Source: Methanocalculus sp.
GTDB lineage: Archaea > Halobacteriota > Methanomicrobia > Methanomicrobiales > Methanocorpusculaceae
Length of the DNA stretch: 11,643 nt
NCBI RefSeq assembly: GCF_029762515.1
Contig: NZ_JARVGN010000017.1
Span: 1-11,643 of the forward strand
Direction of reading: 5' to 3'
Shown here: piece by piece, positions 147 through 11,643 of the stretch
Layout: every line of letters starts with the position of its first letter
Numbering within the stretch: the first letter of the stretch is position 1
Made by a program: the position numbers and the translations under genes
The notes under the pieces: generated by a model
What the model saw: only the letters and a program-made list of their open reading frames with translations
The model's database searches: none
What the model was told of the DNA's origin: nothing

Positions 147-2006
147 TTACCTCAATTTCTCCCCGCATCCCTTACAAATTTGGTCTGAACTGTCGTTTTT
201 GGTTTTACATACAGGGCAGATCAGACTCTCATCCGGTTGCACTGGGTTGATTATCACCGGCTGTCCCATGCCTCCGCCTCCGGCAACAACCGTTGAGCCC
301 TGTGCTTGATGGGCGCTGCTACGCGCCGTTGCTGTACTGCCCATCGCACCAAGAGCTTTATTCATTACATCGGCCAGCCGATCTGCATTTTCCCCAAATG
401 TTTTCTGCATCATATCCATGTATTTCTGCTGGTCTTCCAGTCGGGCATCGAATAGTTCCTTCATCTTGTCAGAACCAAATTTCGCTTTCAATGCTTCTGC
501 CGCTGTAACTGGATCCTTAGCATTGAGCGCGAGAATCTGTTCAGGAGAAAGGGCGTTAGCACGTCTCATTATCTCGATATTGGTAAGATATTCTGCAGCT
601 TTAGGATCACCAGTGATTACAATTTTTGATTCTGTCGAAGAATTGTCAATATTTTTAAGTCTCTTGCCTTCATTCTCGGTGGCATGATCTTGGTCCTTAT
701 GTTCGAGTTCCTGCTCTCCGGCCTTTTTTTGAAGAATTGCCTCAATTAATTTCTTTTTAGCCTCGATAAGAGCTATCAAATCTTTTCGATCACGATCGCG
801 CTCATGATCCGCAATTTTATCCTTATGATCCAAATCATGACCTAGTTCCGTATCTTCAATATCGTGACGGTGCTTCTGCTGAGCTTTCTCAAGGATAATT
901 GCGCGGATAAATTCCTGATCTTCCCTTTTATGAATAAGTTCAGTCTTTAACTCCTCGATATCATTCTCTCGAATAATGCCCGCCTTTGCAAGCTCATGGA
1001 TAAAAGAATCAACTGATTCCTTATCGGAAAGTTTACTGATTTCATCATCAGACAGCAATTTCCGGATTTTTTGTTCCGTATCAAGGTCCAGTCCTGTCGC
1101 TGTAACTTTCTTCGTCCTTTCGATGCGCCCGTCGATGATATCTTGCCATTCAGATTCATCGTATCGGACAAACCTGAGACGTTCTAAGGAAAATCCATAA
1201 TTTTGCAGGATTGGAGCGACTCGTGTTTGAACCCCACCTTCAATCTCATCTTTCACTGAAAGATTTCCATAGAGATCATCCATTCTATACTCGCGTAATG
1301 TTGATTGGACGACGCTCTGAATATCATACGAAAGATCGGCCTGAAGATCGGTCAGAAGAATCTGACTCTTTCCTTTCAGAAGATTGTCAATAAATTTTTT
1401 TGAGTCGGCGTTTCTGAGGGTCAGCGTACCGCTGACCCCGACCGGGATCGAATCGGCAGTACGGATCTGTGTCTTATCAAAGGTGAAATCGAGGGTGACA
1501 ATTCCGTCGTCAACGAGAACGATGGTTGCGCGGTCATCGAGATTGATTGGCAGGTGGGCCTCAAGGAATGTGCCGATATCATAATAGCCGGGTCTGAGAT
1601 CGCCCTGATACGCACCGCCCTGGAACAGAAGAGCGCGTGTTCCTTCAGCCACGGTGACCGTCTTTTTGAAAATGCCACGAAGGTCTTCAACTTCAAATCT
1701 GCTGGCAAAATCTCCCGGTTTTCTCCTCCACTGGCGGGTGCGAGTGAAATCCTCTTCATTTGATCCTACAAATTTGCCCAGTCGAGATGGTCTCACACTT
1801 GTTCCGCAACCTGGGCAGTATTTTGCATCCGGCGGAATGGAAGAACCACAATTATTGCATACATAGGCTTCGGATTTTGTTCCGCATTGCGAGCAGAATT
1901 TTGCATCCCGTTCCAGCGTTTTTCCACATTTCAAGCATTGTTTGCTTCCAGAAGCATTTTCTGCAATCTTTTCTATTTTCCCCTTGAATAGTTCCATAAT
2001 AATCAC
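147..2006 (-). CDS. SPFH/band-7 (flotillin/stomatin-like) domain protein with N-terminal double zinc ribbon, long charged coiled-coil region and C-terminal zinc ribbon; no obvious TM helix. Likely true start is ATG at 1995-1997 (MELFKGK...); the 2006 start is a GTG.
   Basis: This is the 619-aa ORF from the track. The N-terminus carries the CxxC spacing CLKCG...CSQCG...CNNCG...CPGCG, a double zinc ribbon. The central segment SIPVGVSGTLTLRNADSKKFIDNLL...LREYRMDDLYGN...LQNYGFSLERLRFVRYD matches the SPFH/band-7 pattern (strand-rich core, LR...Ly.nR motif, GI/F-x-L-x-x-v-x-I). A ~250-aa E/K/D/H-rich helical region follows, typical of flotillins. The C-terminus ends CPVCK...CKGCG, a zinc ribbon. 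Confidence 0.75.
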   Translation of the reverse strand: MIIMELFKGKIEKIAENASGSKQCLKCGKTLERDAKFCSQCGTKSEAYVCNNCGSSIPPDAKYCPGCGTSVRPSRLGKFVGSNEEDFTRTRQWRRKPGDFASRFEVEDLRGIFKKTVTVAEGTRALLFQGGAYQGDLRPGYYDIGTFLEAHLPINLDDRATIVLVDDGIVTLDFTFDKTQIRTADSIPVGVSGTLTLRNADSKKFIDNLLKGKSQILLTDLQADLSYDIQSVVQSTLREYRMDDLYGNLSVKDEIEGGVQTRVAPILQNYGFSLERLRFVRYDESEWQDIIDGRIERTKKVTATGLDLDTEQKIRKLLSDDEISKLSDKESVDSFIHELAKAGIIRENDIEELKTELIHKREDQEFIRAIILEKAQQKHRHDIEDTELGHDLDHKDKIADHERDRDRKDLIALIEAKKKLIEAILQKKAGEQELEHKDQDHATENEGKRLKNIDNSSTESKIVITGDPKAAEYLTNIEIMRRANALSPEQILALNAKDPVTAAEALKAKFGSDKMKELFDARLEDQQKYMDMMQKTFGENADRLADVMNKALGAMGSTATARSSAHQAQGSTVVAGGGGMGQPVIINPVQPDESLICPVCKTKNDSSDQICKGCGEKLR

Positions 2007-2130
2007 CAGTAATACACTCGTTGTTCGGACCCCGTACAGTGCAATTTTTCAGGTTAAGACGGGCATATTTGACGATCGGTATGTGCGCGTATCAAATTCA
2101 GCGATTCAGGCTGGATTTTGCATACAAGTA

Positions 2131-2175
2131 AAATGGTTGCATTGTCCCGATCGGTCGTGCTTAATACAACCATTT
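2131..2175. promoter_or_regulatory. Inverted repeat / stem-loop: 9-bp arms AAATGGTTG (2131-2139) and CAACCATTT (2167-2175) with a 27-nt loop containing the palindrome CCGATCGG (2147-2154); followed on the + strand by a T-rich tract
   Basis: The complementarity is directly visible. It lies in the 246-nt gap between the stop of the ESCRT-III/PspA-like gene (2253) and the start of the SPFH gene (1997/2006). It could be an operator or attenuator for the SPFH gene, or a terminator-like structure. Confidence 0.35.
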
Positions 2176-2252
2176 ATATTCCTTTTCTCTCATTTGAGTG
2201 ATTGCCGTTCACTAATTATAAATCATGCTCATTTTATTCGGATGTGGTTTCC

Positions 2253-2855
2253 TCATTTTTTCAATCCTGAAGATAATGTGCGAAAGAAATCATTTCCCAC
2301 AGAATCAAATGTGAGTCGATTCATTTGCATCTCGGTAATGAGTGATTCGATGTATGATTCCTCAACAGAAGCGGTTACTTCCTGAAAGATATGTTCAGCG
2401 GTGATCTCTGAAAGTTCGTCCATTAGAGCCCTGTGTTCTTCTTTGCTGTAACTGGCTTTTGCCAGCCACCATTCGAGTGTATCTGGGTCTATAGCCTGCA
2501 TCTTCTTCCAGACACCCGAGCGTTTCAGCGTTGTTTGCTGCTCCTTTATGGCGATGATATTCGAAAGCACGCGAAGATCCTTCTCAAGATGCATGCATGT
2601 AGTGGCTTTAAGCTGCCAGGACTCGGAAATTGCTCTGATACGTTTTGCATAGAAGGATGTCCCCGCTTCTTCGCATCCGGATGATGCTGCCGAGAAGAGT
2701 GTTCTAATCTGCTGTTCCAGATCTGTTTTTTCGTTCTGCAGTTTCTGGATCTGATACTTCATCTGAGATTCTGCCTTTCTGAGCTCCCCAAGATTCATCG
2801 AATCAAAAGGAGTTGTGTGGAATAGCCTTGAGAAGATGCTCATCGATTGATGCAC
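2253..2855 (-). CDS. ESCRT-III/PspA (Snf7 / IM30) superfamily coiled-coil protein, paralog B; probable true start ATG at 2841-2843 (MSIFSRLF...), 196 aa
   Basis: This is the 200-aa ORF. The N-terminal MSIFSRLF resembles the N-terminal amphipathic motif of ESCRT-III (CHMP4 MSVFGKLF) and PspA (MGIFSRF). The long helical hairpin has heptad character. The segment LSNIIAIKEQQTTLKRSGVWKKMQAIDPDTLE resembles the Snf7 helix-3/4 region (LK..k.m.idkvd.l.d). It aligns along its whole length with the adjacent 2871-3473 ORF. AGGTGG lies about 10 nt upstream of ATG 2843 on the minus strand. Confidence 0.6.
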   Translation of the reverse strand: MHQSMSIFSRLFHTTPFDSMNLGELRKAESQMKYQIQKLQNEKTDLEQQIRTLFSAASSGCEEAGTSFYAKRIRAISESWQLKATTCMHLEKDLRVLSNIIAIKEQQTTLKRSGVWKKMQAIDPDTLEWWLAKASYSKEEHRALMDELSEITAEHIFQEVTASVEESYIESLITEMQMNRLTFDSVGNDFFRTLSSGLKK

Positions 2856-2870
2856 CCACCTGATACTCTC

Positions 2871-3473
2871 TCAATCTTCTAGCTCCGCGATGGCTTTCTC
2901 AAGATCCTTTTCTATTGAAAAGAGACCGCCTGCTTCTTCCAGCTCCAGAGTTCCTGTCTCAACGCTGTTCCAGATCTCAAACATCTGCTTTTCAGCTTCA
3001 TCGAGATCATTGTCTGAGTCCGCAATATCCAGAGCGAAGATCTGGTTCAGATCGTCAACAACGTTCTCGAATCCCTTGCCTGCGAGATTTACCTGGATGA
3101 GCGAACTTTCAAAGGCATCGGGTGATATACTCTGAATCTTATCCCAAATTTGTGTTTTCTGGAGATCACGCTGGTACTTCTTGATTACCACAAGGTTTGA
3201 GATAAACATGTACTGCTTGTGCAGTGCCATAAAGTTACGAACCTTTAGTTTGGCACTCATGTCCATCTGCTTGAGCTCTTGTGCAAGCATCTTCTTTTTA
3301 ATGAGGTCGGCACCAACACCTTCTCCGAATTTTTGTTTCTTCTCTCGTTCAATCCTGTCGATTTCCTTACGAAGGCGATTTATACGACTTTTGAGCTTGA
3401 GTTCTTCTTCCTGCAGTTCAGAAACCTTGAGTTTCTCAATCCGGTTACGGCGGAAATGTTCTGTGATTTTCAT
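2871..3473 (-). CDS. ESCRT-III/PspA superfamily coiled-coil protein, paralog A (200 aa), first gene of the leftward operon
   Basis: It has the same length and co-linear similarity to paralog B (ELQEEELKLKSRINRLRKEIDRIEREKKQKF vs ELRKAESQMKYQIQKLQNEKTDLEQQIRTLF; ISNLVVIKKYQRDLQKTQIWDKIQSISPDAFE vs LSNIIAIKEQQTTLKRSGVWKKMQAIDPDTLE). The C-terminal tail is acidic. Only 27 nt separate its stop from the start of paralog B. GGTGA lies 6 nt upstream of the ATG, and a TATA box sits about 35 nt upstream. Confidence 0.55.
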   Translation of the reverse strand: MKITEHFRRNRIEKLKVSELQEEELKLKSRINRLRKEIDRIEREKKQKFGEGVGADLIKKKMLAQELKQMDMSAKLKVRNFMALHKQYMFISNLVVIKKYQRDLQKTQIWDKIQSISPDAFESSLIQVNLAGKGFENVVDDLNQIFALDIADSDNDLDEAEKQMFEIWNSVETGTLELEEAGGLFSIEKDLEKAIAELED

Positions 3474-3506
3474 CTTGTGTCACCGATCGCGAATTGTCGT
3501 CAATCC

Positions 3507-3515
3507 TATATAAAA
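3507..3515. promoter_or_regulatory. TATA-box-like element TATATAAAA (minus-strand sense TTTTATATA preceded by purine-rich GGAGGAAA, a BRE-like element) in the divergent intergenic region; probably the promoter of the leftward ESCRT-III/PspA-like operon
   Basis: It is positioned about 35 nt upstream of the ATG at 3473 on the minus strand, with a purine-rich tract immediately upstream, as in archaeal BRE/TATA promoters. A second AT-rich candidate (ATAATATTAAT, 3534-3544) faces the rightward operon. Confidence 0.4.
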
Positions 3516-3517
3516 TT

Positions 3518-3534
3518 TCCTCCTTTACGGAGGA
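3518..3534. promoter_or_regulatory. Perfect dyad TCCTCC-N5-GGAGGA between the two divergent promoters; candidate operator
   Basis: TCCTCC (3518-3523) and GGAGGA (3529-3534) are exact reverse complements separated by TTTAC. It is located between the TATA candidates of the two divergent operons. Confidence 0.35.
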
Positions 3535-3564
3535 TAATATTAATGGCCAATATGTAGTGCTCCG

Positions 3565-4131
3565 ATGTGGAGGTATTTTTTTATAGGAATGGTGCGTACA
3601 GATCCAATAAGAATGGATTATCTCCTGGTTGTGGATTATCACTCTGACGCGGAACGTAAACGGATTGATGCCACCATCGAGCGGTGGAAATCAAAGAAAA
3701 ACGTGCGCAAAGAGAAAGGCGTATTGATCCGGGCAAGTGATGACGATATCGAAGCCTTTCTGCAAGATCTTTATGCGCGACTGGATAGGGGGAGCGAGAG
3801 TGTTCGGATGTACAAAGCAGAGGCATGTAGTCCGGACGTTGGAGAGGTATCACGAACACTTCGATATGAGGCAGAGATTGATCAAGAGACTGTCCGACAA
3901 TTCTTACGATATATTCTCAATAAACTCAATGGTAGTTATGAAGGAGTTCGGGATGGCGTAGAATCATACACAGTCTATACCCGGAAAGGTCAGGCGTCAA
4001 CAGGTTTCGTCTGGGCGGATCATCCAGGGAAAACTAAATTGACAATTTTCGTGAGCGGTTTTGGTGATGTGGTCTCTTTTGTTGCAGAGCGGATTGACGA
4101 AGAGCTGAAAGCATTTCTGGGAGGGGTATAA
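3565..4131 (+). CDS. Hypothetical protein (188 aa from ATG 3565; alternative starts ATG 3589 or 3613), first gene of the rightward operon; no recognisable domain
   Basis: This is a long ORF with no stops. Its stop TAA (4129-4131) overlaps by 1 nt the ATG of the next gene (TAATG), which supports a translated, co-transcribed gene. There is no convincing Shine-Dalgarno sequence for any start, so it may be leaderless. I could not match the sequence to a known family. Confidence 0.55.
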   Translation: MWRYFFIGMVRTDPIRMDYLLVVDYHSDAERKRIDATIERWKSKKNVRKEKGVLIRASDDDIEAFLQDLYARLDRGSESVRMYKAEACSPDVGEVSRTLRYEAEIDQETVRQFLRYILNKLNGSYEGVRDGVESYTVYTRKGQASTGFVWADHPGKTKLTIFVSGFGDVVSFVAERIDEELKAFLGGV

Positions 4132-6044
4132 TGGCTGGTCAAAAAAAGACTGATTCACATTCAAAATATGTTCATCATTATCGACTTGGAACAACGCAAT
4201 ATAAAGCATCGCGATTTCTTGAGGCAATTAAGTCATTTGATAATGCATTGAAATATAAACCACAATCATACTGGGCGTGGAATGAAAAAGGGAATGCGCT
4301 CAGAAAACTGGGTCGGCTTGAAGAGGCGTTGAAATGCTATAACCATGCTACTTCCCTTGACAGATCAAAATCATATCCATTCGCGTATATAGGTAGGGGA
4401 GACGTCCATCGTGAACAAAAAACGTATAAAAAAGCAATTTCTAACTATAATCAAGCCTTAAAAATCAAAAGGCATCCATTTGCCTTAAATGGTAAAGCAC
4501 AGTGCTTTTATGAAACAGGTAACAAAAATGAAGCATTTCAGCTAGCGGAAGAGGCAATACTTTTGCGTCCTTATTTTGAACATCCGTATATTTTAACCGG
4601 AGATATTCTATTTGACCGTGGTTTGTACAAAGATGCAAAGGAAAGGTATGAAAGAGCTATCGGATTAATCGATACAGGTTCAAGTGAACTTCGTGCAGCT
4701 TTACATAAAAAAATACAGGATTGCAGTATGAAGATTGATGCCGAATCTCCGGGGATTAAGGACGAGCCTGATATTGATCCGGAAGATATTGGTGCTCTTC
4801 TCTCTCAACTTCGCTCGGGAAATGACAGTGGGCGTGCAGAAGCATCGTATAATCTTGATATCTGTGCGAAAAAGAACCTGGCAGGCCAGATCATCAGACA
4901 CCGGCCCTTTCCTCTCTTTGAGTCTGCTCTGGGTGATCCGGTTCCGGAGGTGCGGAAACAAGTTCAATGGATTCTTGGTAATCTTGCACTGCACGGGTTT
5001 TCCTACGAAGTCACTGAATCTGGAGTATTGGGCCTTCTTGCAGCAAATCTTGGCGATACCAATGAAGAAGTGCGTAGTGCAGCAGCATGGACACTTGCCG
5101 TCATAGCTGAGGTCGGACAGGGTATTCGAGTGGCAGAAACGGGTATGATCCACTCCTGTATCCAGCTGTTAGATGACAGTAATGCTGGAGTCCGTTCTTC
5201 AGCGGCCCTTGCTCTGGATAAAGTTGCCTTTTATGCAAGCCCGGAGCCAATTGTTCATGCCGATGGGGTTGTGAACCTTGCTGGGCATATCCTGGATACG
5301 GATACCGGAGTACGTGCGAGTACCCTATGGGCGCTCTGGTCTATCGCCTTCCGAGGATATGTCGACAGTATATGCGATGCTCCGGACCTGATCACCGATC
5401 TTAAGCAGTCAGCCCAGAGCAGAAACCTTGAAATTCGGAAAGCTGCGATTTCTCTGATTGGGGAACTTTCAACCGTTTCTGATAAATCGTTCTTGGAAAA
5501 TAAAGATCTTGAGCGAATTCTCATTTCCGGGATTGGTTCCCGAAGTAACCGTGTTCGGGGTGCCTCGATATGGGCTGTTGGGAGATGGGCAGATGCAGGA
5601 ATTGCTACCTCCTTGATTCGGAGCGGGGTTAAGGAAGCAATGAGAAACTGCCGGGATGACCACACAAATGTTCACGTTTTTTACCACAGTGAACTCCGCT
5701 GGAAGCAACGCTCTATTGGCGGTATCGCGGACGATGTCCTGAAAAAGCTGGATGAACCCACGGCCGCTCCAGATGATCTTGCTCCCTGCGAAGCTGATTA
5801 TCGTACCGCATATTTTGTCGTAAATAGTTATGTAGAACATTTGGCCCAAAGCGAACTTCATGAGGCTCGCAAAAAAGTCGTTCATCTGGAACAATTTGTA
5901 TGTGGTCCTACTCTTGAGGTAGTCCGGTATCAAAGGGATCACCTGGATCTCTATATCCAACAAGAAATTGATGAAATTCCTGAAGAGTTCGTCAATGAAG
6001 CAGAGTTATTAAAAGAGGAAATCCTCCGCAGAGCGCTGGCATAG
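4131..6044 (+). CDS. TPR-repeat + HEAT-repeat (PBS-lyase-type) scaffold protein, 637 aa
   Basis: The N-terminal ~200 aa carries TPR-like 34-residue repeats (AIKSFDNALKYKPQSYWAWNEKGNALRKLGRLEEALKCYNHATSLD ... AISNYNQALKIKRH ...). The middle carries at least 7 HEAT_PBS-like repeats with the signature D.d..VR..A..aLg.i (DPVPEVRKQVQWILGNLA, DTNEEVRSAAAWTLAVIA, DSNAGVRSSAALALDKVA, DTDTGVRASTLWALWSIA, SRNLEIRKAAISLIGEL, SRSNRVRGASIWAVGRWA). A strong RBS, GGAGGGG, lies 6-11 nt upstream. Confidence 0.8.
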   Translation: MAGQKKTDSHSKYVHHYRLGTTQYKASRFLEAIKSFDNALKYKPQSYWAWNEKGNALRKLGRLEEALKCYNHATSLDRSKSYPFAYIGRGDVHREQKTYKKAISNYNQALKIKRHPFALNGKAQCFYETGNKNEAFQLAEEAILLRPYFEHPYILTGDILFDRGLYKDAKERYERAIGLIDTGSSELRAALHKKIQDCSMKIDAESPGIKDEPDIDPEDIGALLSQLRSGNDSGRAEASYNLDICAKKNLAGQIIRHRPFPLFESALGDPVPEVRKQVQWILGNLALHGFSYEVTESGVLGLLAANLGDTNEEVRSAAAWTLAVIAEVGQGIRVAETGMIHSCIQLLDDSNAGVRSSAALALDKVAFYASPEPIVHADGVVNLAGHILDTDTGVRASTLWALWSIAFRGYVDSICDAPDLITDLKQSAQSRNLEIRKAAISLIGELSTVSDKSFLENKDLERILISGIGSRSNRVRGASIWAVGRWADAGIATSLIRSGVKEAMRNCRDDHTNVHVFYHSELRWKQRSIGGIADDVLKKLDEPTAAPDDLAPCEADYRTAYFVVNSYVEHLAQSELHEARKKVVHLEQFVCGPTLEVVRYQRDHLDLYIQQEIDEIPEEFVNEAELLKEEILRRALA

Positions 6045-6052
6045 GGGATAAT

Positions 6053-7234
6053 ATGAACGTGGATCTCAGTGGGTTTCTGACGAAAGAACTGAAGAAAACA
6101 ATACGGGAATATCGAGCAGCATGTTCTGAAAATGATTCCCGCATAGTCCGGGAGAAAGCCCATATCTGTGCGATTCTGAGTCAAAAATTAGCTGAGCAGT
6201 CGCCATCATTTCGGAATAAATACCTCTCAGATGCAAAAAAATGGGAATTTATTGCATCCGGAAAAAATCCGGTGTCCTTGGATATCAGTAATAGAGATCC
6301 CTCCCGACGACCAGAAACTCAGGATTCTGCGAATGAATCGGATCTGGATTTTGATGCAACGTCGTTGATATCATCATCATCGGTCAGGTGGGATGATATC
6401 GGTGGTCTGGATGAGGTTAAACGTCTGGTAAAGGAAACGGTAGTCATCGCGGGTCTTCGGAAACCTGCTGCAATCCAGCCATGGAAGGGAATTCTTCTCT
6501 TTGGCCCTCCAGGGACGGGAAAGACGATGATTGCAGCAGCGGCTGCAGGGAGTCTGCATGCGACTTTCTTTGATGTGAAAGCCGATCGTATTCTCTCAAA
6601 ATATTTTGGGGAGTCATCAAAGATCATTGCCTCTCTCTACGCATCAGCAAGGAAGCGGGCACCTTCGATTGTGTTTATTGATGAGTTTGATGCGCTCGGT
6701 TCAGCAAGAAGTGAAGGTACCGGCGAAGCAACACGAAAGCTGCTCTCTTCTCTTCTCACCGAACTTGATGGACTGCAAGACAAGAACGCTGATCGGCTTC
6801 TTCTCACTATGGCAGCCACCAATACTCCCTGGGATCTTGATCCGGCAGTTCTGTCTCGTTTTCCCCGGCGAATTTTTGTGACGCTTCCGGATGAGGCATC
6901 CTGTGCAGCAATCATCAGACTTCATCTGCGCGGTCTTGAAGTCGCTGATCTTGAAATTTCAGATCTTGGGAGGAGGTGTGTGGAACAGGGGTATTCAGGT
7001 AGAGATATTCAGAACCTCTGCCAGCAAGCGATCTGGGCCATGATCCACGAGGAAAATCCACAACTGGAGAAGCTCGCAGATCTCACGTTTGATGAGTTGA
7101 GTGAACAAGTGCTGAAGACAAGAGGTCTGTTTGCCGGTGATTTTACGGAGGCATTTGAGATTGTGCGTTCGCCAGTGCGCGAGGCCGACCTGGACCGGTA
7201 TAGGCAATGGAGTGAGGAGTATGGGGGGATGTGA
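6053..7234 (+). CDS. Vps4/CdvC-like (katanin/spastin 'meiotic' clade) AAA+ ATPase with helical MIT-like N-terminal domain, 393 aa
   Basis: The Walker A motif is GPPGTGKT, preceded by PWKGILLF, the PW-x-G-ILL signature of this clade. The Walker B motif is IVFIDEFD. The second region of homology, TNTPWDLDPAVLSRFPRRIFVTLPD, aligns closely with Vps4 [25 protein letters not shown]. The C-terminus YRQWSEEYGG resembles the Vps4, katanin and spastin C-terminal W..E(F/Y)G. The N-terminal ~70 aa is an all-helical region, consistent with an MIT three-helix bundle. The RBS AGGGG lies 5 nt upstream. The gene is spaced 8 nt after the previous gene. Confidence 0.9.
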   Translation: MNVDLSGFLTKELKKTIREYRAACSENDSRIVREKAHICAILSQKLAEQSPSFRNKYLSDAKKWEFIASGKNPVSLDISNRDPSRRPETQDSANESDLDFDATSLISSSSVRWDDIGGLDEVKRLVKETVVIAGLRKPAAIQPWKGILLFGPPGTGKTMIAAAAAGSLHATFFDVKADRILSKYFGESSKIIASLYASARKRAPSIVFIDEFDALGSARSEGTGEATRKLLSSLLTELDGLQDKNADRLLLTMAATNTPWDLDPAVLSRFPRRIFVTLPDEASCAAIIRLHLRGLEVADLEISDLGRRCVEQGYSGRDIQNLCQQAIWAMIHEENPQLEKLADLTFDELSEQVLKTRGLFAGDFTEAFEIVRSPVREADLDRYRQWSEEYGGM

Positions 7235-7546: not shown

Positions 7547-8251
7547 TTAAATTTTTGAATTCATCCATTTCCGTACAATTGTCTTTACAAGATTTTGTGC
7601 ATCATGAAGTTCCATCGGGTTTTCAGGTTTCTGAAATTTTTTTCGAGCATGTCGGGCCTCTTTTCCAATTGCGTCGTAACTCTGGGCTGTTTGTTTGAAT
7701 CGCCCAATCTCGCTATAAAATTCTCCATTTTTCTTCACAGGTGCATAACCGTCTTCCTGGACTAATTCAATAATATTATAGAGCACACCAAATGAGTTGA
7801 AATCGTGGTCTATGAGTTCATTAACTCGCTGGACTCTCTCATCTGTTTGTGCGAGCCGAATTAATTTGATAATTTTGTTATCTGGTGGAGATTCAACAGT
7901 AGTTCCATCTTTTTTTGTAACGGTCACTTGGACTCGTGCGCGTATATGAATTGAAGCGGTTAAAGGTTCAAGAAAAATTGTCTTTTTACCGTCTTCATCA
8001 ATGAATTGAATTCCTCCTCGTTTTATCAAATCCGACGAATTGAAAAGTAGTTTTCTTGCTGCATTGATATTGATCAACAATTCATCGGCTTTTGCCTTGA
8101 CAGATTTATGATCGGAAGAATTCTCCAATGATGTAAATTCAAGTAGATATTTTTCACCTTCATTGAGAACACGAAAGTCAGTTGACTGGAGAATTTCACT
8201 CAATTCTGCTAGATCATTCGCATCTCCGTGAAGATCAACCTGCCACTTCAT
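7547..8251 (-). CDS. Hypothetical protein (234 aa), last gene of the Type I R-M operon (24 nt after the hsdS stop), AT-rich; function unknown
   Basis: This is a clean ORF with AGGT 8 nt upstream of the ATG at 8251, co-directional with hsdS and closely spaced to it. I recognise no known motifs in the protein, which is a mixed alpha/beta, Lys-rich sequence. Confidence 0.65.
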   Translation of the reverse strand: MKWQVDLHGDANDLAELSEILQSTDFRVLNEGEKYLLEFTSLENSSDHKSVKAKADELLININAARKLLFNSSDLIKRGGIQFIDEDGKKTIFLEPLTASIHIRARVQVTVTKKDGTTVESPPDNKIIKLIRLAQTDERVQRVNELIDHDFNSFGVLYNIIELVQEDGYAPVKKNGEFYSEIGRFKQTAQSYDAIGKEARHARKKFQKPENPMELHDAQNLVKTIVRKWMNSKI

Positions 8252-8275: not shown

Positions 8276-9799
8276 TCATTTTTTTGCCTTTATTCGCTCA
8301 AGCAGCACACTTGCTGGTTCATACTCCCGTTCCTCCCGCCGGGCCAGTTCTGCCTCGGTGGACACCAGCTGTCCGGAAAATGCCTGGGCGAGGATGGACT
8401 GCCGGAGTGTTTCGGTGCGTTCTTTAGCAGCGGTGATGCGGGCCTCGATCTGATCGGCGAGGGCGAATAGAGCGTCGGCCCGGTGGACAATTTCATCCTG
8501 TTCGGAAAGCGGAGGGAGGGGGATTGGTAAAGATTTGATATTACTCAAATTTAACCTGGCTCGACCCACACCGTGAATCGATTCTACCATTCTCTTCCTT
8601 GTTGATTCAGTATTGATCGCGAAGATGACGTATTTATTATTAGCAATTTCTTGATGCGGATTGAGTCTAATGCAATCAGCTTTAACAATTGCGGGTCCGA
8701 AATCATCTGGGATTTGACAAGCCCGAGGGATTGGGTCACCTAGTGTTCCAATAACAAGATCCTTTGGAAAAACTTGATGTTTTTTTAATTTTGTGAAATG
8801 ATCTGTTGAGATATGCGATTTCACATCGATGAAATTACCATCGCCTAAGTTTTGTAATCGTATGACTCTTGGACCGGAATCAGTATAATGCTCAGTTTTC
8901 AGATTCGATCCAAAAGGACCGTCTGTTATTGAATTTGCTTCGATACCAGATACCTGATCTATACTAGCCCAAGTCCATTTATCTGAAACAATTGGTAAAT
9001 CACTGATTTCTATTCCTTTTGGTTCACGATATTTTTCTTTCCACTTCGAATTTTTCGGAGTTTTTCCTTTATCTTGGAAAGTCTGTATTTGTTCTCTTTC
9101 CCAAGCCATTCGTTTTTGATTTAAGATATTTCCCACAGCCTCTTTTGCATCTGTAATGTCCGGATTCTCCGACCGCCAGTCCTCCGTCAGCCGCCCTTCG
9201 CACGCAGCGGCGAGCACCGCCTGCCTGAACTGCTGCACGATGCCCGGCACCCTGTCAAGGCGGGCCTGTGCGGCGTCCAGCCGGGCGAACAACGCCTCTA
9301 TGGCAGCTACGATGCGGTGCTGTTCGGCGAGAGGGGGGAGGGGGATTTTCAACTCTTTTAATTTTGTTGCATTACAATTTGGCTGAGCAATTCCTGAAAT
9401 ATTCTGAGAAATTTGGGTCCAATATTCGGATGTGCTAAAAAATAGACTCATGAATTTTTGATTGACATTTCTGTTTGGTCTAAGCCGAATGAGATACGAG
9501 GCAAAAATGCTATCTGGGCAGGAAGATATCAGATAGCTCTTGCCTGTAGTTGCACCAGTTCGTGCAAAAACAATGTCTCCAGACTCCAATTTATATTTGG
9601 AAATTTGTTCTTCCTTGATGCTGCAAAACGGAACATCATTCCAATCAACAAAATCATTCTGGATATCTGTAATTCGCAAAAAATGAGGTCCAACTTTATT
9701 TTTATCAGCTGAAGCCGTATATCCGTATTTTATTTCATCGGAGATATCGTTAATAGTTGATTGAATCCAACCTTCTGGCAACTCACTATTCTGCGGCAT
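8276..9799 (-). CDS. hsdS: Type I restriction-modification specificity subunit HsdS, copy 1 (507 aa), with two TRDs
   Basis: The N-terminus has MPQNSELPEGW, the canonical LPEGW HsdS start. The central conserved region is LPPLAEQHRIVAAIEALFARLDAAQARLDRV... The C-terminal conserved region is LPPLSEQDEIVHRADALFALADQIEARI...LLERIKAKK. The two conserved regions show the internal repeat structure typical of HsdS, flanking two variable TRDs of about 150 and 210 aa. Confidence 0.9.
   Translation of the reverse strand: MPQNSELPEGWIQSTINDISDEIKYGYTASADKNKVGPHFLRITDIQNDFVDWNDVPFCSIKEEQISKYKLESGDIVFARTGATTGKSYLISSCPDSIFASYLIRLRPNRNVNQKFMSLFFSTSEYWTQISQNISGIAQPNCNATKLKELKIPLPPLAEQHRIVAAIEALFARLDAAQARLDRVPGIVQQFRQAVLAAACEGRLTEDWRSENPDITDAKEAVGNILNQKRMAWEREQIQTFQDKGKTPKNSKWKEKYREPKGIEISDLPIVSDKWTWASIDQVSGIEANSITDGPFGSNLKTEHYTDSGPRVIRLQNLGDGNFIDVKSHISTDHFTKLKKHQVFPKDLVIGTLGDPIPRACQIPDDFGPAIVKADCIRLNPHQEIANNKYVIFAINTESTRKRMVESIHGVGRARLNLSNIKSLPIPLPPLSEQDEIVHRADALFALADQIEARITAAKERTETLRQSILAQAFSGQLVSTEAELARREEREYEPASVLLERIKAKK
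8279..8527. repeat. HsdS C-terminal conserved block, copy 1; direct repeat of 9854-10102 (~85-90% nt identity by eye, identical runs up to 37 nt)
   Basis: The identical runs include GAGGATGGACTGCCGGAGTGTTTCGGTGCGTTCTTT and AGAGCGTCGGCCCGGTGGACAATTTCATCCTGTTCGG. The block is GC-rich (~60%). Confidence 0.85.
9164..9349. repeat. HsdS central conserved block, copy 1; direct repeat of 10670-10855 (~90% nt identity by eye)
   Basis: Shared runs include ATGCGGTGCTGTTCGGCGAGAGGGGGGAG, GCGTCCAGCCGGGCGAACA and GATGCCCGGCACCCT. The block is GC-rich. Confidence 0.85.
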
Positions 9800-9850
9800 T
9801 TTTTTATCTCTTGTTTTTCGATCACTATGGGTAATCTGTTAAAATTTTTC

Positions 9851-11245
9851 TTAAATAGAAGATTTAATACGCTCCAGCAGCACTAGTGCTGGTTCATATT
9901 CTCGCCTCTCCCGCTGGGCCAGCTCCGCCTCGGTAGGCACCAGCTGCCCGGAAAATGCCTGGGTGAGGATGGACTGCCGGAGTGTTTCGGTGCGTTCTTT
10001 GGCGGTGGCGACGCGGGCCTCGATCTGGTCTGCGAGGGCGAAGAGAGCGTCGGCCCGGTGGACAATTTCATCCTGTTCGGGGATAGGTGGAAGGGGGATT
10101 GCAATCGACTTTAAAATAGTACCATTTATTCCTGGACGAGTTTGTCCTCGAATTTGATTTTGAATTTGTTGCTGAACAGGAATTGCTCCTCTCAGTGTTT
10201 GAAATAAATAATGGGGAGATACTAAATCTTGATTCGAAGTAATGCGATAGACATGCTTGGTGATAATTGCGGTCTCACAATTTTCGGGAAAGACGCAACA
10301 TCTGCCAATTGTTGCCATGACAGTGATTAACAAATCCAGGGGCCTTGCAGTGTATTTTCTTAATTCTTCATATTTTTCCGGACTTATTCGGTGTTCTTTT
10401 CCATAGGAAAAAAATCCGTTCTGTACATTATCAATTCCAATTGCTAAAATCCCAGAATCTTGAAACTCTGAATGAAGTAGATTGCTGCCAAAAGGGCCAC
10501 TTTGGATAGAACGAGCCTCTGGTGAGGCCAGTTGCTCTATGGTTGCCCAACACCATTTATCGGGTATATCATTTAAACCAGAAGTATCGGGCGTTTGGAT
10601 TTTCTTTTTTCCGGACGATAGCGTATTAAGTGTTATTTCAAGGTATTTTCGTGAATTCTCTATATTCGGATGTTCCGCCCGCCAATCCTCCGTCAGCCGC
10701 CCATCGCACGCAGCAGCGAGCACCGCCTGCCGGAACTGCTGTAGGATGCCCGGCACCCTATCAAGGCGGGCTTGTGCAGCGTCCAGCCGGGCGAACAGCG
10801 CCTCGATGGCGGTGACTATGCGGTGCTGTTCGGCGAGAGGGGGGAGTGGTATTGTCAAGGCTTTGACAATCTTTTGAGTTATAAGAGGTTGCGAGCTCCC
10901 AGTCTGGATACTAATCCAATCTACGGTCTGAAAATACCTGATTAACCAATTGAACAAATCTTGAGAATTGGGTTTTATAACTAAAGTGTTGTCAGTAACC
11001 CAGGCATTTTTTTTGTATACTGTAAGTGCTCCCGCTGCGCCAACTCTACCGAGGGTAATAATTGGTGATGTGAAATTATAGCTATCAGTATAGCCTATGG
11101 GCCCTCCTGCCCCTGCAACAGGGTAAGGCTGATCTGGAATTTTACTATAGTCTTCCCTTTTTATGTACTTTCCACTGGCAATTGAGATGAGAGAGCCCAA
11201 ATCTGAAGTCTCCCACCCCTCCGGCAGCTCACTCTTCTGTTGCAT
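9851..11245 (-). CDS. hsdS: Type I restriction-modification specificity subunit HsdS, copy 2 (464 aa), with two different TRDs
   Basis: It starts MQQKSELPEGWE. Its central block (LPPLAEQHRIVTAIEALFARLDAAQARLDRV...) and C-terminal block (...EQDEIVHRADALFALADQIEARV...LLERIKSSI) are near-identical to copy 1, whereas the two TRDs are unrelated to those of copy 1. The start overlaps the hsdM stop by 17 nt. Confidence 0.9.
   Translation of the reverse strand: MQQKSELPEGWETSDLGSLISIASGKYIKREDYSKIPDQPYPVAGAGGPIGYTDSYNFTSPIITLGRVGAAGALTVYKKNAWVTDNTLVIKPNSQDLFNWLIRYFQTVDWISIQTGSSQPLITQKIVKALTIPLPPLAEQHRIVTAIEALFARLDAAQARLDRVPGILQQFRQAVLAAACDGRLTEDWRAEHPNIENSRKYLEITLNTLSSGKKKIQTPDTSGLNDIPDKWCWATIEQLASPEARSIQSGPFGSNLLHSEFQDSGILAIGIDNVQNGFFSYGKEHRISPEKYEELRKYTARPLDLLITVMATIGRCCVFPENCETAIITKHVYRITSNQDLVSPHYLFQTLRGAIPVQQQIQNQIRGQTRPGINGTILKSIAIPLPPIPEQDEIVHRADALFALADQIEARVATAKERTETLRQSILTQAFSGQLVPTEAELAQRERREYEPALVLLERIKSSI
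9854..10102. repeat. HsdS C-terminal conserved block, copy 2 (direct repeat of 8279-8527)
   Basis: See the partner block 8279-8527. Both copies lie in the same orientation on the minus strand. Confidence 0.85.
10670..10855. repeat. HsdS central conserved block, copy 2 (direct repeat of 9164-9349)
   Basis: See the partner block 9164-9349. Confidence 0.85.
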
Positions 11246-11643
11246 ACCCGTTCCCCATCAGGTCGAGAATCGCCTGTAGTTCGTCGACCGCGGCCTCGAG
11301 TTCGTCGATGGCCTCGGCAGCGAGTTCCTCCGGAAGTGGCAGGTCCTCGCTGGACTCCAGCGACTCGTCGCGCAGCCACTTCAGCGAGTCGATCTTGTAG
11401 TCTCGCTCCTGCAGCTCGGTGATATGGAACGAGCGCCAGCGGTCGGCGGGGGAGTCAGCGGCATTGCGCTTTGCCCGGGCGTTGGGGTCGGGGCCGTAGC
11501 AGTGCTCGAACTCGGCGAAATGCTCCGGGGTGAGGGGGCGGTCCTTCTTGGTGATCTTGGGCACGTTGGTGCGGGCGTCGTAGACCCAGGTGTGCTCGGT
11601 GGGCGCGCCCCTGGTGAAGAAAATCACGTTCGTCTTGGTGCCC
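11229..11643 (-). CDS. hsdM: Type I R-M methyltransferase subunit HsdM, C-terminal ~138 codons (5' end lies beyond the window edge)
   Basis: The frame is open to the window end (...GTKTNVIFFTRGAPTEHTWVYDART...), and the track 'start' at 11627 is a GTG inside the gene. NVIFFTKG...VWFYD is the conserved C-terminal core of HsdM, followed by the acidic helical tail that contacts HsdS. GC is about 65%. Confidence 0.85.
   Translation of the reverse strand, partial: GTKTNVIFFTRGAPTEHTWVYDARTNVPKITKKDRPLTPEHFAEFEHCYGPDPNARAKRNAADSPADRWRSFHITELQERDYKIDSLKWLRDESLESSEDLPLPEELAAEAIDELEAAVDELQAILDLMGNGYATEE

What the first reader, a model, noticed from the sequence alone, without database searches (positions are those of the whole stretch)
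2253..3473. Tandem paralogous 200-aa coiled-coil proteins with an ESCRT-III/PspA-type N-terminal motif (MSIFSRLF)
The two adjacent ORFs are co-linear paralogs, aligning end-to-end (see feature evidence). Paralog B begins, from its internal ATG at 2843, with MSIFSRLF. This closely matches the N-terminal amphipathic membrane-binding motif shared by eukaryotic ESCRT-III (MSVFGKLF in CHMP4, MGLFGK in CHMP3) and by PspA/Vipp1 (MGIFSRF). Paralog A lacks this motif (MKITEHFRRNRIEKLK, basic) and ends in a strongly acidic tail. This resembles the division of labour among ESCRT-III subunits: a nucleating or membrane-binding subunit versus an acidic autoinhibitory or MIM-bearing subunit. Two differentiated subunits next to a Vps4-like ATPase fit ESCRT-III-like behaviour better than a single PspA.
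Basis: partly seen in the sequence, partly recalled or inferred. Interest (0 to 1): 0.65.

Follow-up and report, generated by a model that had tools for sequence, protein, structure and literature searches.

The report
Known archaeal ESCRT-III (Snf7-like) gene pair

Summary
Two co-linear paralogs lie on the minus strand: A (3473-2871) and B (2843-2253). B starts MSIFSRLF, and A has a basic N-terminus and an acidic tail.

The window comes from Methanocalculus sp. (Methanomicrobiales). The pair sits in a cluster conserved across the order: A -> B -> zinc-ribbon/SPFH protein, diverging from a Cas2-like/TBP protein -> TPR-HEAT protein -> Vps4-like AAA ATPase.

- **Published match:** the cluster matches the "Main clade" euryarchaeal ESCRT system of Makarova et al. 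2024 (mBio). That paper files the tandem pair as Snf7-family arCOG09747 and arCOG09749.
- **Orthology:** A is a clear ortholog of the Thermococcus protein at the arCOG09747 position (167-177 bits).
- **Direct homology to Snf7:** weak but consistent. It consists of a family-level hhalign result, repeated sub-threshold Snf7 and CdvB matches, hairpin models, a family-wide N-terminal motif and the ESCRT-III charge split.
- **PspA:** no signal.
- **"Division of labour":** only partly supported, because A keeps a weakened N-terminal motif and B also has the charge split.
- **MIT domain:** none detected in the ATPase.

The parts
2871..3473 (-). Paralog A: a conserved ESCRT-III/Snf7-type subunit (arCOG09747-type), 200 aa. 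It has a basic N-terminal half (+14) and an acidic C-terminal half (-19).
   Evidence: - ORF present.
- More than 300 homologs, 65-92% identical among the 120 listed, nearly all named ones from Methanomicrobiales.
- 167-177 bits to the 198-aa Thermococcus henrietii protein that sits at the arCOG09747 position.
- AlphaFold model with pLDDT 75.9: helices 17-52 and 57-99 form a hairpin, followed by short helices.
- Charge split.
2253..2843 (-). Paralog B: a fast-evolving ESCRT-III/Snf7-type subunit (arCOG09749-type by position), 196 aa from the ATG. Its N-terminus MSIFSRLF is a predicted H0 amphipathic motif.
   Evidence: - ORF and start codon.
- 26% identical to A, E=1e-16.
- Only 5 close homologs. 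The B-position genes of other Methanomicrobiales are 17-39% identical.
- AlphaFold model with pLDDT 76: hairpin formed by helices 18-54 and 59-101.
147..2006 (-). Double zinc ribbon + SPFH/Band-7 + long charged coiled coil + C-terminal zinc ribbon protein (619 aa; the probable ATG start is at 1997). It lies downstream of B and is the presumed membrane platform of the system (arCOG15283-type).
   Evidence: - Pfam hits: DZR 1e-13, Zn_Ribbon_1 3e-14, Band_7 6e-9.
- Orthologs occupy the same position after the B gene in L001-L004, with 51% and 32% identity.
- Makarova 2024 Table S1 lists the Methanocorpusculum SPFH proteins as an ESCRT system component.
3474..3612 (.). Divergent intergenic region between A and the Cas2-like gene. 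It contains AT-rich TATA-like elements facing both ways (cctatataaa at 3507-3516; ttttttatagg at 3577-3587).
   Evidence: Read directly from the sequence. Promoter function is inferred, not tested.
3613..4131 (+). arCOG08177-type protein (inactivated Cas2-like domain + TBP/DUF3568-like domain), 172 aa from MDYLLVVDY. The mechanical ORF starts at 3565.
   Evidence: - 38% identity over the full length (E=1e-35) to the 171-aa T. henrietii protein at the arCOG08177 position, and 45-58% identity to the Methanomicrobiales orthologs. All alignments begin at residue 17 of the long ORF.
- The N-terminal motif matches the arCOG08177 alignment of Makarova Fig. S3.
- No Pfam hit.
4131..6044 (+). TPR + HEAT/ARM repeat protein (637 aa) in the variable adaptor slot between the Cas2-like gene and the ATPase.
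   Evidence: - Pfam hits: TPR_2 2e-23, HEAT 6e-23.
- No BLAST similarity to the 614-aa Thermococcus arCOG09748-position protein.
- This slot holds different TPR/zinc-ribbon proteins in L001-L004.
6053..7234 (+). Vps4-like single-domain AAA+ ATPase (393 aa). It has a ~100-aa helical N-terminal region and a Vps4_C-type C-terminal helix.
   Evidence: - Pfam AAA 3.5e-36; Vps4_C 21.8 bits against a cut-off of 21.3.
- NCBIfam CdvC 182.7 bits, below the 650 cut-off.
- The best single-domain PDB match, katanin p60, covers residues 107-392.
- The M. taiwanensis ATPase of this cluster type is in the Vps4 tree of Makarova 2024.
- No MIT domain detected.

Best explanation
A and B are two paralogous subunits of the ESCRT-III (Snf7) superfamily. 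They belong to the euryarchaeal 'Main clade' ESCRT system (arCOG09747 and arCOG09749).

**Shown:**
- They are co-linear paralogs.
- They belong to a ~200-aa family with about 205 clusters at 50% identity.
- The family has a conserved N-terminal hydrophobic/basic motif, a predicted long helical hairpin followed by short helices, and a basic N-half with an acidic C-half.
- The genes sit in a conserved cluster with a Vps4-like AAA ATPase, a Cas2-like/TBP protein and a zinc-ribbon SPFH protein.

**Inferred mechanism:**
- The subunits are soluble and autoinhibited, with the acidic C-terminal helices folded back on the basic hairpin.
- They open and co-polymerise on the cytoplasmic membrane through the hairpin face and the N-terminal H0 motif. 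B keeps the full hydrophobic motif. A is the slowly evolving core subunit.
- The SPFH/zinc-ribbon protein marks or cages a membrane patch and recruits or nucleates the polymer, much as B. subtilis YdjI recruits PspA.
- The Vps4-like ATPase extracts subunits to drive remodelling and recycling.
- The TPR-HEAT and Cas2-like/TBP proteins act as adaptors.

The likely cellular role is membrane repair or vesicle budding and protein sorting rather than cell division. By my own knowledge, Methanomicrobiales divide with FtsZ; this was not tested here.
For: - **Paralogy:**
- **Source organism and family:**
- **Conserved synteny:** four other loci (Methanoplanus endosymbiosus, two Methanocorpusculum-type contigs, and one contig binned as Cloacimonetes) have the same arrangement.
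- **Link to the published Thermococcales layout:** the T. henrietii locus has the gene order 171 aa / 614 aa / 198 aa / 205 aa / kinases. This equals the published T. gammatolerans order arCOG08177 / 09748 / 09747 / 09749.
- **Orthology scores:** A scores 167-177 bits to the 198-aa gene. The Cas2-like protein scores 114 bits to the 171-aa gene.
- **Published assignments:** Table S1 lists adjacent M. limicola proteins WP_004077840 and WP_004077839 as arCOG09747 and arCOG09749, 'Snf7 family protein'. It also lists the M. taiwanensis Vps4 WP_255333475. The M. taiwanensis A-ortholog is WP_255333477.
- **Direct homology to Snf7:**
  - hhalign of the 105-member family against a 91-sequence Snf7 alignment gives 72.7% probability, P=3.2e-5, over 144 co-linear columns that include the N-terminal LFG motif. 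The reversed control gives P=0.13.
  - Against 5 Pfam-validated Snf7 sequences the result is P=1.4e-4, with a reversed control of 0.053.
  - Snf7 is the only Pfam family hit by more than one member (4/105).
  - CdvB 9s9j is the best natural PDB sequence hit (E=0.015) and has the highest Foldseek probability (0.63).
- **Structure:**
- **N-terminal motif and charge split:**
Against: - A and B do not reach the threshold of Pfam Snf7 or PspA, or of any NCBIfam or PADLOC model.
- HMMER against PDB is not significant.
- Foldseek finds nothing at E<0.37.
- The best profile-profile probability is only 73%, and it appears only with the broad family profile. The narrow A or A+B profiles give no signal.
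- B's orthology to arCOG09749 rests on position and N-terminal motif, not on score: 60 bits to the Thermococcus 205-aa gene against 51 bits to the 198-aa gene.
- No MIT domain was detected in the ATPase.
- Every mechanistic step is inferred. No experiment exists for this clade in the papers I read.
Confidence: 0.85

Rival explanations
1. A and B are PspA/Vipp1-type (bacterial-type) stress proteins acquired horizontally by methanogens. They would act alone as membrane-repair scaffolds, independent of the AAA ATPase.
For: - B's MSIFSRLF is nearly identical to E. coli PspA's MGIFSRF. The only aligned stretch in hhalign A3 vs PspA/Vipp1 is residues 1-9.
- An SPFH partner recalls B. subtilis YdjI-PspA.
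- The 2025 review states that PspA homologues entered the Methanotecta ancestor by horizontal transfer.
Against: - No PF04012 hit in A, B or any of the 105 family members.
- hhalign of the family against PspA+Vipp1 gives P=0.14, no better than reversed controls, while Snf7 gives P=3e-5.
- The Vps4-like ATPase is conserved in the cluster.
- A is orthologous to arCOG09747.
- My PspA profile had only two sequences, so this test is weak.
Confidence: 0.04
2. A and B are generic antiparallel coiled-coil hairpin proteins, for example SMC-like 'chromosome assembly' or prefoldin-like factors. Any resemblance to ESCRT-III would be compositional.
For: - NCBI names A 'chromosome assembly protein'.
- There are no significant HMMER or Foldseek hits.
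Against: - The Snf7 signal disappears when the Snf7 alignment is reversed. Reversal keeps composition and heptad character, so the signal is not compositional.
- The N-terminal motif, the charge split and the ~200-aa size fit ESCRT-III.
- The linkage to a Vps4-like ATPase is conserved.
- No DNA-binding or SMC-partner genes are in the cluster.
Confidence: 0.06
3. The cluster is an anti-virus or conflict system. An IetA/TRIP13-like AAA ATPase with coiled-coil effectors would sit in a defence island next to type I restriction-modification genes.
For: - The ATPase hits PADLOC IetA models at 2e-36 and NCBIfam IteA at 6e-35.
- B has a weak hit to a TOTE conflict-system coiled-coil domain (E=0.012).
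- Two hsdS genes and the end of an apparent hsdM-type gene (named by eye, no tool run) lie at 8276-11627.
- The T. gammatolerans locus carries an MNT/HEPN insertion.
Against: - The IetA hits are generic classic-AAA similarity. Cdc48, CdvC and PAN models score higher.
- A and B have no PADLOC hit at a useful level.
- In other genomes the cluster's neighbours are not defence genes. They are a kinase and phosphatase, a transporter, and methyl-coenzyme M reductase.
- A is 65-92% identical among the listed Methanomicrobiales homologs. Such strong conservation is more typical of a housekeeping gene, by my own knowledge.
- This rival concerns biological role and is compatible with an ESCRT-III fold.
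Confidence: 0.05

Closest known systems
arCOG09747 / arCOG09749 'Snf7 family proteins' of the 'Main clade' euryarchaeal ESCRT system (Makarova et al. 2024, mBio, PMC10936438)
   Same: - Both are tandem ~200-aa paralogs.
- The partners are the same: Vps4 arCOG01307 and the Cas2-like/TBP protein arCOG08177. In Methanocorpusculum there is also the SPFH protein arCOG15283.
- A is clearly orthologous to the Thermococcus arCOG09747-position gene.
- Methanocalculus taiwanensis and Methanoplanus limicola loci are in that paper's tables.
   Different: - Here the slot of arCOG09748 (a ~610-aa protein with a C-terminal winged helix) is occupied by a TPR+HEAT protein with no BLAST similarity to the Thermococcus arCOG09748-position protein.
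- No kinase or phosphatase gene is in this window.
- B is too diverged to assign to arCOG09749 by score alone.
Crenarchaeal CdvB / CdvB1 / CdvB2 with CdvC (Vps4) and CdvA
   Same: - Both are multiple ESCRT-III paralogs working with a Vps4-type ATPase.
   Different: - No CdvA is present.
- A and B have no C-terminal winged-helix extension (200 aa, all-helical models).
- The genes are not in one operon with the ATPase.
- By my own knowledge the host has FtsZ, so a role in division is unlikely.
Eukaryotic ESCRT-III (Snf7/CHMP4, CHMP2, CHMP3, CHMP1B) with Vps4
   Same: - The family profile aligns co-linearly from the N-terminal LFG motif through helix 4.
- Both share the basic-N/acidic-C charge split (A +14/-19; Snf7 +9/-28; CHMP3 +14/-22).
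- Both have specialised subunits.
   Different: - Similarity is below Pfam's threshold.
- There is no demonstrated MIM motif. A's C-terminal helix has L191/I195/L198 in MIM1-like spacing, but L198 is not conserved in the family.
- No MIT domain is detectable in the ATPase.
Bacterial PspA-YdjG-YdjH-YdjI module of Bacillus subtilis (Scholz et al. 2021, PMC8581546)
   Same: An ESCRT-III-superfamily protein is encoded next to an SPFH protein. In B. subtilis the SPFH protein YdjI is needed to bring PspA to the membrane.
   Different: - A and B are Snf7-type, not PspA-type.
- In this window the zinc ribbons and the SPFH domain are fused in one protein.
- A Vps4-like ATPase is part of the cluster.

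Membership tests
ESCRT-III superfamily (Snf7-type) | Detectable sequence homology to Snf7 (PF03357) or to solved ESCRT-III proteins | tested here: inconclusive
   - A and B alone have no Pfam Snf7 hit at E<=1.
- PDB phmmer gives CdvB at E=0.14 for A.
- At family level, 4/105 members hit Snf7 (best E=2.5e-4).
- The family profile hits CdvB at E=0.015.
- hhalign against a 91-sequence Snf7 alignment gives 72.7% probability, P=3.2e-5, 144 columns; the reversed control gives P=0.13.

The results are consistent and directional but below the usual 90-95% confidence bar.
ESCRT-III superfamily (Snf7-type) | A protein of ~200-250 aa with a long H1-H2/H3 helical hairpin followed by shorter helices H4-H5 (definition from the review PMC7619361) | tested here: met
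   - AlphaFold models: A has helices 17-52 and 57-99, then short helices to residue 199 (pLDDT 75.9). B has helices 18-54 and 59-101, then short helices (pLDDT 76.0).
- These are predictions. The hairpin alone is not specific to ESCRT-III.
ESCRT-III superfamily (Snf7-type) | N-terminal H0 membrane-binding motif (hydrophobic/basic, at the very N-terminus) | tested here: met
   - In 105 family representatives, positions 3, 4, 7 and 8 are hydrophobic in 69-83% of sequences. Positions 9-10 are K/R in 62-68%.
- B has MSIFSRLF. A has MKITEHFRR, which is weakened.
- hhalign aligns this motif to the LFG motif of Snf7/CHMP proteins.
- Membrane binding itself was not tested.
ESCRT-III superfamily (Snf7-type) | Basic N-terminal core and acidic C-terminal autoinhibitory region | tested here: met
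   Net charges are A 1-115 +14 and 116-200 -19; B +6 and -9. For comparison, Snf7 is +9/-28 and CHMP3 is +14/-22.
ESCRT-III superfamily (Snf7-type) | Encoded alongside a Vps4-type AAA ATPase (stated as a defining feature of archaeal ESCRT-III in PMC7619361) | tested here: met
   - An AAA ATPase lies at 6053-7234 with a Vps4_C hit of 21.8 bits against a cut-off of 21.3.
- The same arrangement occurs in L001-L004.
- The M. taiwanensis ATPase of this cluster type is in the published Vps4 tree.
ESCRT-III superfamily (Snf7-type) | C-terminal MIM motif that binds the MIT domain of Vps4 | tested here: inconclusive
   - A ends in a conserved helix (SIEKDLEKAIAELED) with L191/I195/L198 in MIM1-like i, i+4, i+7 spacing. 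Position 198 is not conserved across the family.
- B-type proteins end in a different conserved motif, FFxxLSS.
- The ATPase N-terminal 100 aa has no Pfam MIT hit at E<=10.
ESCRT-III superfamily (Snf7-type) | Polymerises into filaments, spirals or tubes on membranes and is remodelled by the ATPase | not testable with these tools
   This needs protein biochemistry and electron microscopy.
arCOG09747 / arCOG09749 (Main-clade euryarchaeal ESCRT, Makarova 2024) | Orthology to listed members and the same gene neighbourhood (arCOG08177, Vps4) | tested here: met
   - A scores 167-177 bits to the T. henrietii 198-aa gene. That gene's locus order matches the published T. gammatolerans order.
- The Cas2-like protein is 38% identical over its full length to the Thermococcus arCOG08177-position gene.
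- For B, the assignment to arCOG09749 rests on position and N-terminal motif only.
- I could not compare directly with the listed accessions, because no tool fetches them.
PspA/Vipp1 (PF04012) | Sequence homology to PspA_IM30 | tested here: not met
   - No PF04012 hit in A, B or the 105 family members.
- hhalign against E. coli PspA + Synechocystis Vipp1 gives P=0.14, at the level of reversed controls.
- The PspA profile had only two sequences.

The most novel reading that the evidence does not exclude
The pair has split its roles asymmetrically.
- A is a near-frozen core polymer subunit, 65-92% identical among the listed Methanomicrobiales homologs.
- B diverges about as fast as an unconstrained adaptor (17-39% identity over the same genomes). 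It keeps only the H0 membrane motif, the hairpin register and a C-terminal FFxxLSS motif.

On this reading, B would be the nucleator that couples the polymer to the lineage-specific partners: the zinc-ribbon SPFH cage and the variable TPR/HEAT adaptors. The system would then be an SPFH-nucleated ESCRT-III/Vps4 machine for membrane repair or vesicle budding in FtsZ-dividing methanogens. The SPFH link is already suggested in the literature. The rate asymmetry and the proposed role of B are my inference.
Probability: 0.25. Interest if true: 0.5.

Novelty: already known. Interest (0 to 1): 0.28.

Why it matters
ESCRT-III/Vps4 systems in FtsZ-dividing Euryarchaeota are known only from comparative genomics. 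What they do (vesicle budding, protein sorting or membrane repair) is untested, and it bears on how the eukaryotic ESCRT machinery arose.

This locus adds nothing categorically new. It is a clean example of the Methanomicrobiales version of the system: a Snf7 pair, a zinc-ribbon SPFH protein, a Cas2-like/TBP protein, a TPR-HEAT adaptor and Vps4.

It also exposes an annotation gap.
- Public databases call A a 'chromosome assembly protein' and B 'hypothetical'.
- No Pfam or NCBIfam model covers the family.
- RefSeq truncates the ATPase's N-terminal domain.

A dedicated profile for this ~200-aa family would correct hundreds of annotations.

Tried and rejected
**Searches with no usable hit for A or B**
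- Pfam, NCBIfam and PADLOC scans of A and B.
- phmmer and narrow-profile searches of PDB: not significant.
- Foldseek against PDB: nothing below E=0.37.
- hhalign with the narrow A-only or A+B profiles: no signal. Only the 105-member family profile works.

- The afdb50 fold library was not available.

**Tests of neighbouring genes that failed**
- MIT domain in the ATPase: no Pfam hit, and no hhalign signal above the reversed control.
- Cas2/DUF3568 in the 172-aa protein: no Pfam hit. I relied on orthology and the published HHpred result instead.
- TPR-HEAT protein against Thermococcus arCOG09748: no BLAST similarity.

**Other null results**
- Rfam scan of the window: nothing.
- The contigs encoding the distant family member P0162 were too short to show context.

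**Readings rejected**
- The NCBI name 'chromosome assembly protein' has no support.
- I rejected the PspA reading and the defence-system reading for the reasons given under the rival explanations.
Full report
**What is in the sequence**

The window carries two adjacent minus-strand ORFs of 200 codons each. A lies at 3473-2871. B lies at 2855-2253 from a GTG start.

B's real start is the ATG at 2843, which gives 196 aa.
- All four database orthologs and the NCBI gene model begin MSIFSRL.
- The GTG lies inside a GGTGGGTG ribosome-binding-like run just upstream of the ATG.

A and B are genuine paralogs.
- BLASTP gives 26% identity over 145 residues with E=1e-16.
- An alignment of 11 A-type and 5 B-type proteins is co-linear from end to end, with only tiny gaps and eight invariant columns.

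A's N-terminus is basic (MKITEHFRRNRIEKLK). Its last 55 residues carry a net charge of -15.

**Source and neighbourhood**

Protein A is identical to WP_300328777.1 of Methanocalculus sp., on a contig of exactly this window's length.

The minus-strand unit reads A, then B, then a 619-aa protein. That protein has a double zinc ribbon, an SPFH/Band-7 domain, a long charged coiled coil and a terminal zinc ribbon.

The plus-strand unit diverges from A and has three genes:
- A 172-aa protein. The mechanical ORF is 188 aa, but all orthologs align from its residue 17.
- A 637-aa TPR+HEAT protein.
- A 393-aa classic AAA ATPase. It just reaches the cut-off of Pfam's Vps4 C-terminal helix model (21.8 vs 21.3 bits). 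It scores 183 bits on NCBI's CdvC model, far below that model's cut-off.

The same two-armed arrangement recurs in Methanoplanus endosymbiosus, in two Methanocorpusculum-type contigs and in a fourth metagenomic contig. The arrangement is ATPase <- variable TPR/zinc-ribbon proteins <- ~180-aa protein <-> A -> B-like -> zinc-ribbon SPFH.

**Conservation of the two paralogs**

A is strongly conserved.
- It has more than 300 homologs. The 120 listed are 65-92% identical, and nearly all the named ones come from Methanomicrobiales.
- A 27-sequence alignment has 76% mean column identity.

B evolves much faster.
- Only five close homologs were found.
- The genes at the B position in the other loci are only 39%, 20% and 17% identical to it.

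**Link to published work**

Makarova et al. 2024 (mBio, PMC10936438) define a "Main clade" of euryarchaeal ESCRT systems in Thermococcales, Methanococcales, Methanomicrobiales and Halobacteriales. It is built from:
- Vps4 (arCOG01307).
- ESCRT-III proteins.
- arCOG09748, a protein of about 610 aa with a C-terminal winged helix.
- arCOG08177, an inactivated Cas2 domain plus a TBP-fold domain.
- Often kinases and phosphatases.

Their tables contain several directly relevant entries.
- They list two "Snf7 family protein" groups, arCOG09747 and arCOG09749.
- In Thermococcus gammatolerans these are adjacent genes of 198 and 205 codons.
- Methanoplanus limicola has them under consecutive accession numbers.
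- The Vps4 of Methanocalculus taiwanensis is in their tree.
- The Methanocorpusculum SPFH proteins are listed as an ESCRT component, arCOG15283.

I tied the window to that scheme through Thermococcus henrietii.
- One family member found by the profile search is a T. henrietii protein.
- Its locus reads 171 aa, 614 aa, 198 aa, 205 aa, kinases. That is the published T. gammatolerans order.
- Window protein A scores 167-177 bits against the 198-aa gene.
- The window's 172-aa protein is 38% identical over its full length to the 171-aa gene.
- B scores about equally against both Thermococcus paralogs (60 and 51 bits). Its assignment to arCOG09749 therefore rests on gene order and on the shared N-terminal motif, MSILSKFFGKR in Thermococcus.

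**Direct test of ESCRT-III homology**

Simple searches fail.
- A and B have no Pfam, NCBIfam or PADLOC hit.
- HMMER searches of PDB are not significant.

A profile of A+B found 205 clusters (at 50% identity) of ~200-aa proteins among 1.84 billion representatives. Results at the level of that family were:
- Snf7 is the only Pfam family matched by more than one of 105 members (4 members, best E=2.5e-4).
- The best natural PDB hit is Sulfolobus CdvB, at E=0.015.

- The family against the five Snf7 sequences gives 53% probability, P=1.4e-4, over 126 columns.
- Reversing the Snf7 alignment gives P=0.053.
- I enlarged the Snf7 side to 91 sequences using database proteins that carry PF03357.
- That raised the result to 72.7% probability and P=3.2e-5 over 144 co-linear columns, running from the N-terminal LFG motif to helix 4. 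The reversed control gives P=0.13.
- Against PspA+Vipp1 the result is P=0.14, the same as the controls.

The sequence signal is modest, but it is specific, directional, and points to Snf7 rather than PspA.

**Structure**

AlphaFold2 models have moderate confidence (pLDDT 76, pTM 0.64-0.67). Each shows a 36-residue helix and a 43-residue helix forming a hairpin, followed by four to six short helices. This is the expected ESCRT-III layout (review PMC7619361).

- They account for 4 of the top 60 hits for A and 8 of the top 60 for B.
- The hits for B include Shrub, CdvB2, Asgard ESCRT-IIIB, PspA, Snf7, CHMP2A, a CHMP1 chain and CHMP4B.
- They carry the highest identities in the list, 19-21%.

Foldseek finds nothing significant. 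Closed-form CdvB has the highest probability in its list, 0.63.

**The N-terminal motif and the 'division of labour'**

Across 105 family representatives the N-terminus follows M-x-h-h-x-x-h-F-[KR]-[KR], where h is hydrophobic.
- Positions 3, 4, 7 and 8 are hydrophobic in 69-83% of sequences.
- Positions 9-10 are basic in 62-68%.

B keeps all four hydrophobic positions. A in this genome keeps I3, F7 and the dibasic pair. Other A-type proteins keep more, for example MELKNLFKK and the Thermococcus MGLRDMFGKK. A therefore has a weakened motif rather than none.

Both proteins show the ESCRT-III charge split: A +14/-19 and B +6/-9, compared with Snf7 +9/-28 and CHMP3 +14/-22.

A ends in a conserved helix whose hydrophobic spacing resembles a MIM1 motif, but one of the three positions is not conserved. 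B-type proteins end in a different motif, FFxxLSS.

I found no MIT domain in the ATPase's N-terminal 100 residues, by Pfam or by a small profile comparison. The MIM-MIT idea remains open.

**Most likely mechanism**

The following is inferred, not shown.
- A and B are autoinhibited monomers that open and co-polymerise on the inner face of the cytoplasmic membrane, through the hairpin and the N-terminal motif.
- The SPFH/zinc-ribbon protein provides the membrane platform or nucleation site. This parallels B. subtilis YdjI, which localises PspA (PMC8581546, as discussed by Makarova 2024).
- The Vps4-like ATPase removes subunits.
- The TPR-HEAT and Cas2-like/TBP proteins are adaptors.

The role is probably membrane repair or vesicle formation and sorting rather than division.

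**Rivals**

I judge three rivals unlikely, for the reasons listed in their entries:
- A PspA-type origin.
- A generic coiled coil. The NCBI name 'chromosome assembly protein' has no support.
- A defence system.

**Verdict**

However, this gene pair and its cluster are already catalogued as Snf7-family components of an archaeal ESCRT system, so the find is correct but not new. The remaining value lies in three points:
- The annotation gap.
- The marked rate asymmetry between A and B.
- The lack of any experimental study of this clade.

Noticed in passing
window 6053-7234 (+): RefSeq annotates the Vps4-like ATPase as a 289-aa protein (WP_300328786.1), while the GenBank model is 393 aa (MDG6249439.1). 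The RefSeq start drops the ~100-aa N-terminal helical domain. That domain is conserved in the Methanoplanus and Methanocorpusculum orthologs.
   Followed up: partly
window 3565-4131 (+): The mechanical ORF of 188 aa probably starts 16 codons too early. Orthologs from Methanoplanus and Thermococcus align from MDYLLVVDY (ATG at 3613), and the long form is absent from the protein collection.
   Followed up: yes
window 8276-9799 (-) and 9851-11245 (-): Two tandem genes in the same orientation appear, by eye, to be type I restriction specificity (HsdS) genes. They share two conserved blocks as direct repeats (265 nt at 83% and 203 nt at 88% identity), while their target-recognition regions differ. 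The end of what looks like an hsdM-type gene follows at 11229-11627. Recombination between the repeats could swap or delete specificity domains. No family search was run on these ORFs.
   Followed up: no
window 7547-8251 (-): A 234-aa ORF lies between the ESCRT cluster and the restriction genes. It has no Pfam, NCBIfam or PADLOC hit. Its function and its association with either neighbour are unknown.
   Followed up: no
window 2007-2252: The gap between B and the SPFH gene is 246 nt and AT-rich, compared with 40-46 nt in the Methanoplanus and Methanocorpusculum loci. It contains TATA-like runs, so the SPFH gene may have its own promoter here. No Rfam match.
   Followed up: partly
L004 (JGI 3300028602 contig); proteins P0071, P0073: A-type proteins ~70% identical to the Methanocorpusculum protein are labelled in NCBI as Candidatus Cloacimonetes and Paludibacter MAG proteins. 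The P0071 contig carries the full archaeal cluster, so this is probably mis-binned archaeal DNA rather than bacterial ESCRT.
   Followed up: partly
L004 3781-4170 and 8593-9540: In this locus a 129-aa gene is inserted between A and the B-like gene. By eye it has a hydrophobic segment and a Cys-rich tail. A second, shorter SPFH gene (315 aa) lies downstream of the zinc-ribbon SPFH gene.
   Followed up: no
L001 11385-15397 (Methanoplanus endosymbiosus): A PP2C phosphatase and a large PEGA/beta-propeller Ser/Thr kinase follow the SPFH gene. These match the kinase/phosphatase module described for Main-clade ESCRT loci. No such genes are inside this window.
   Followed up: no
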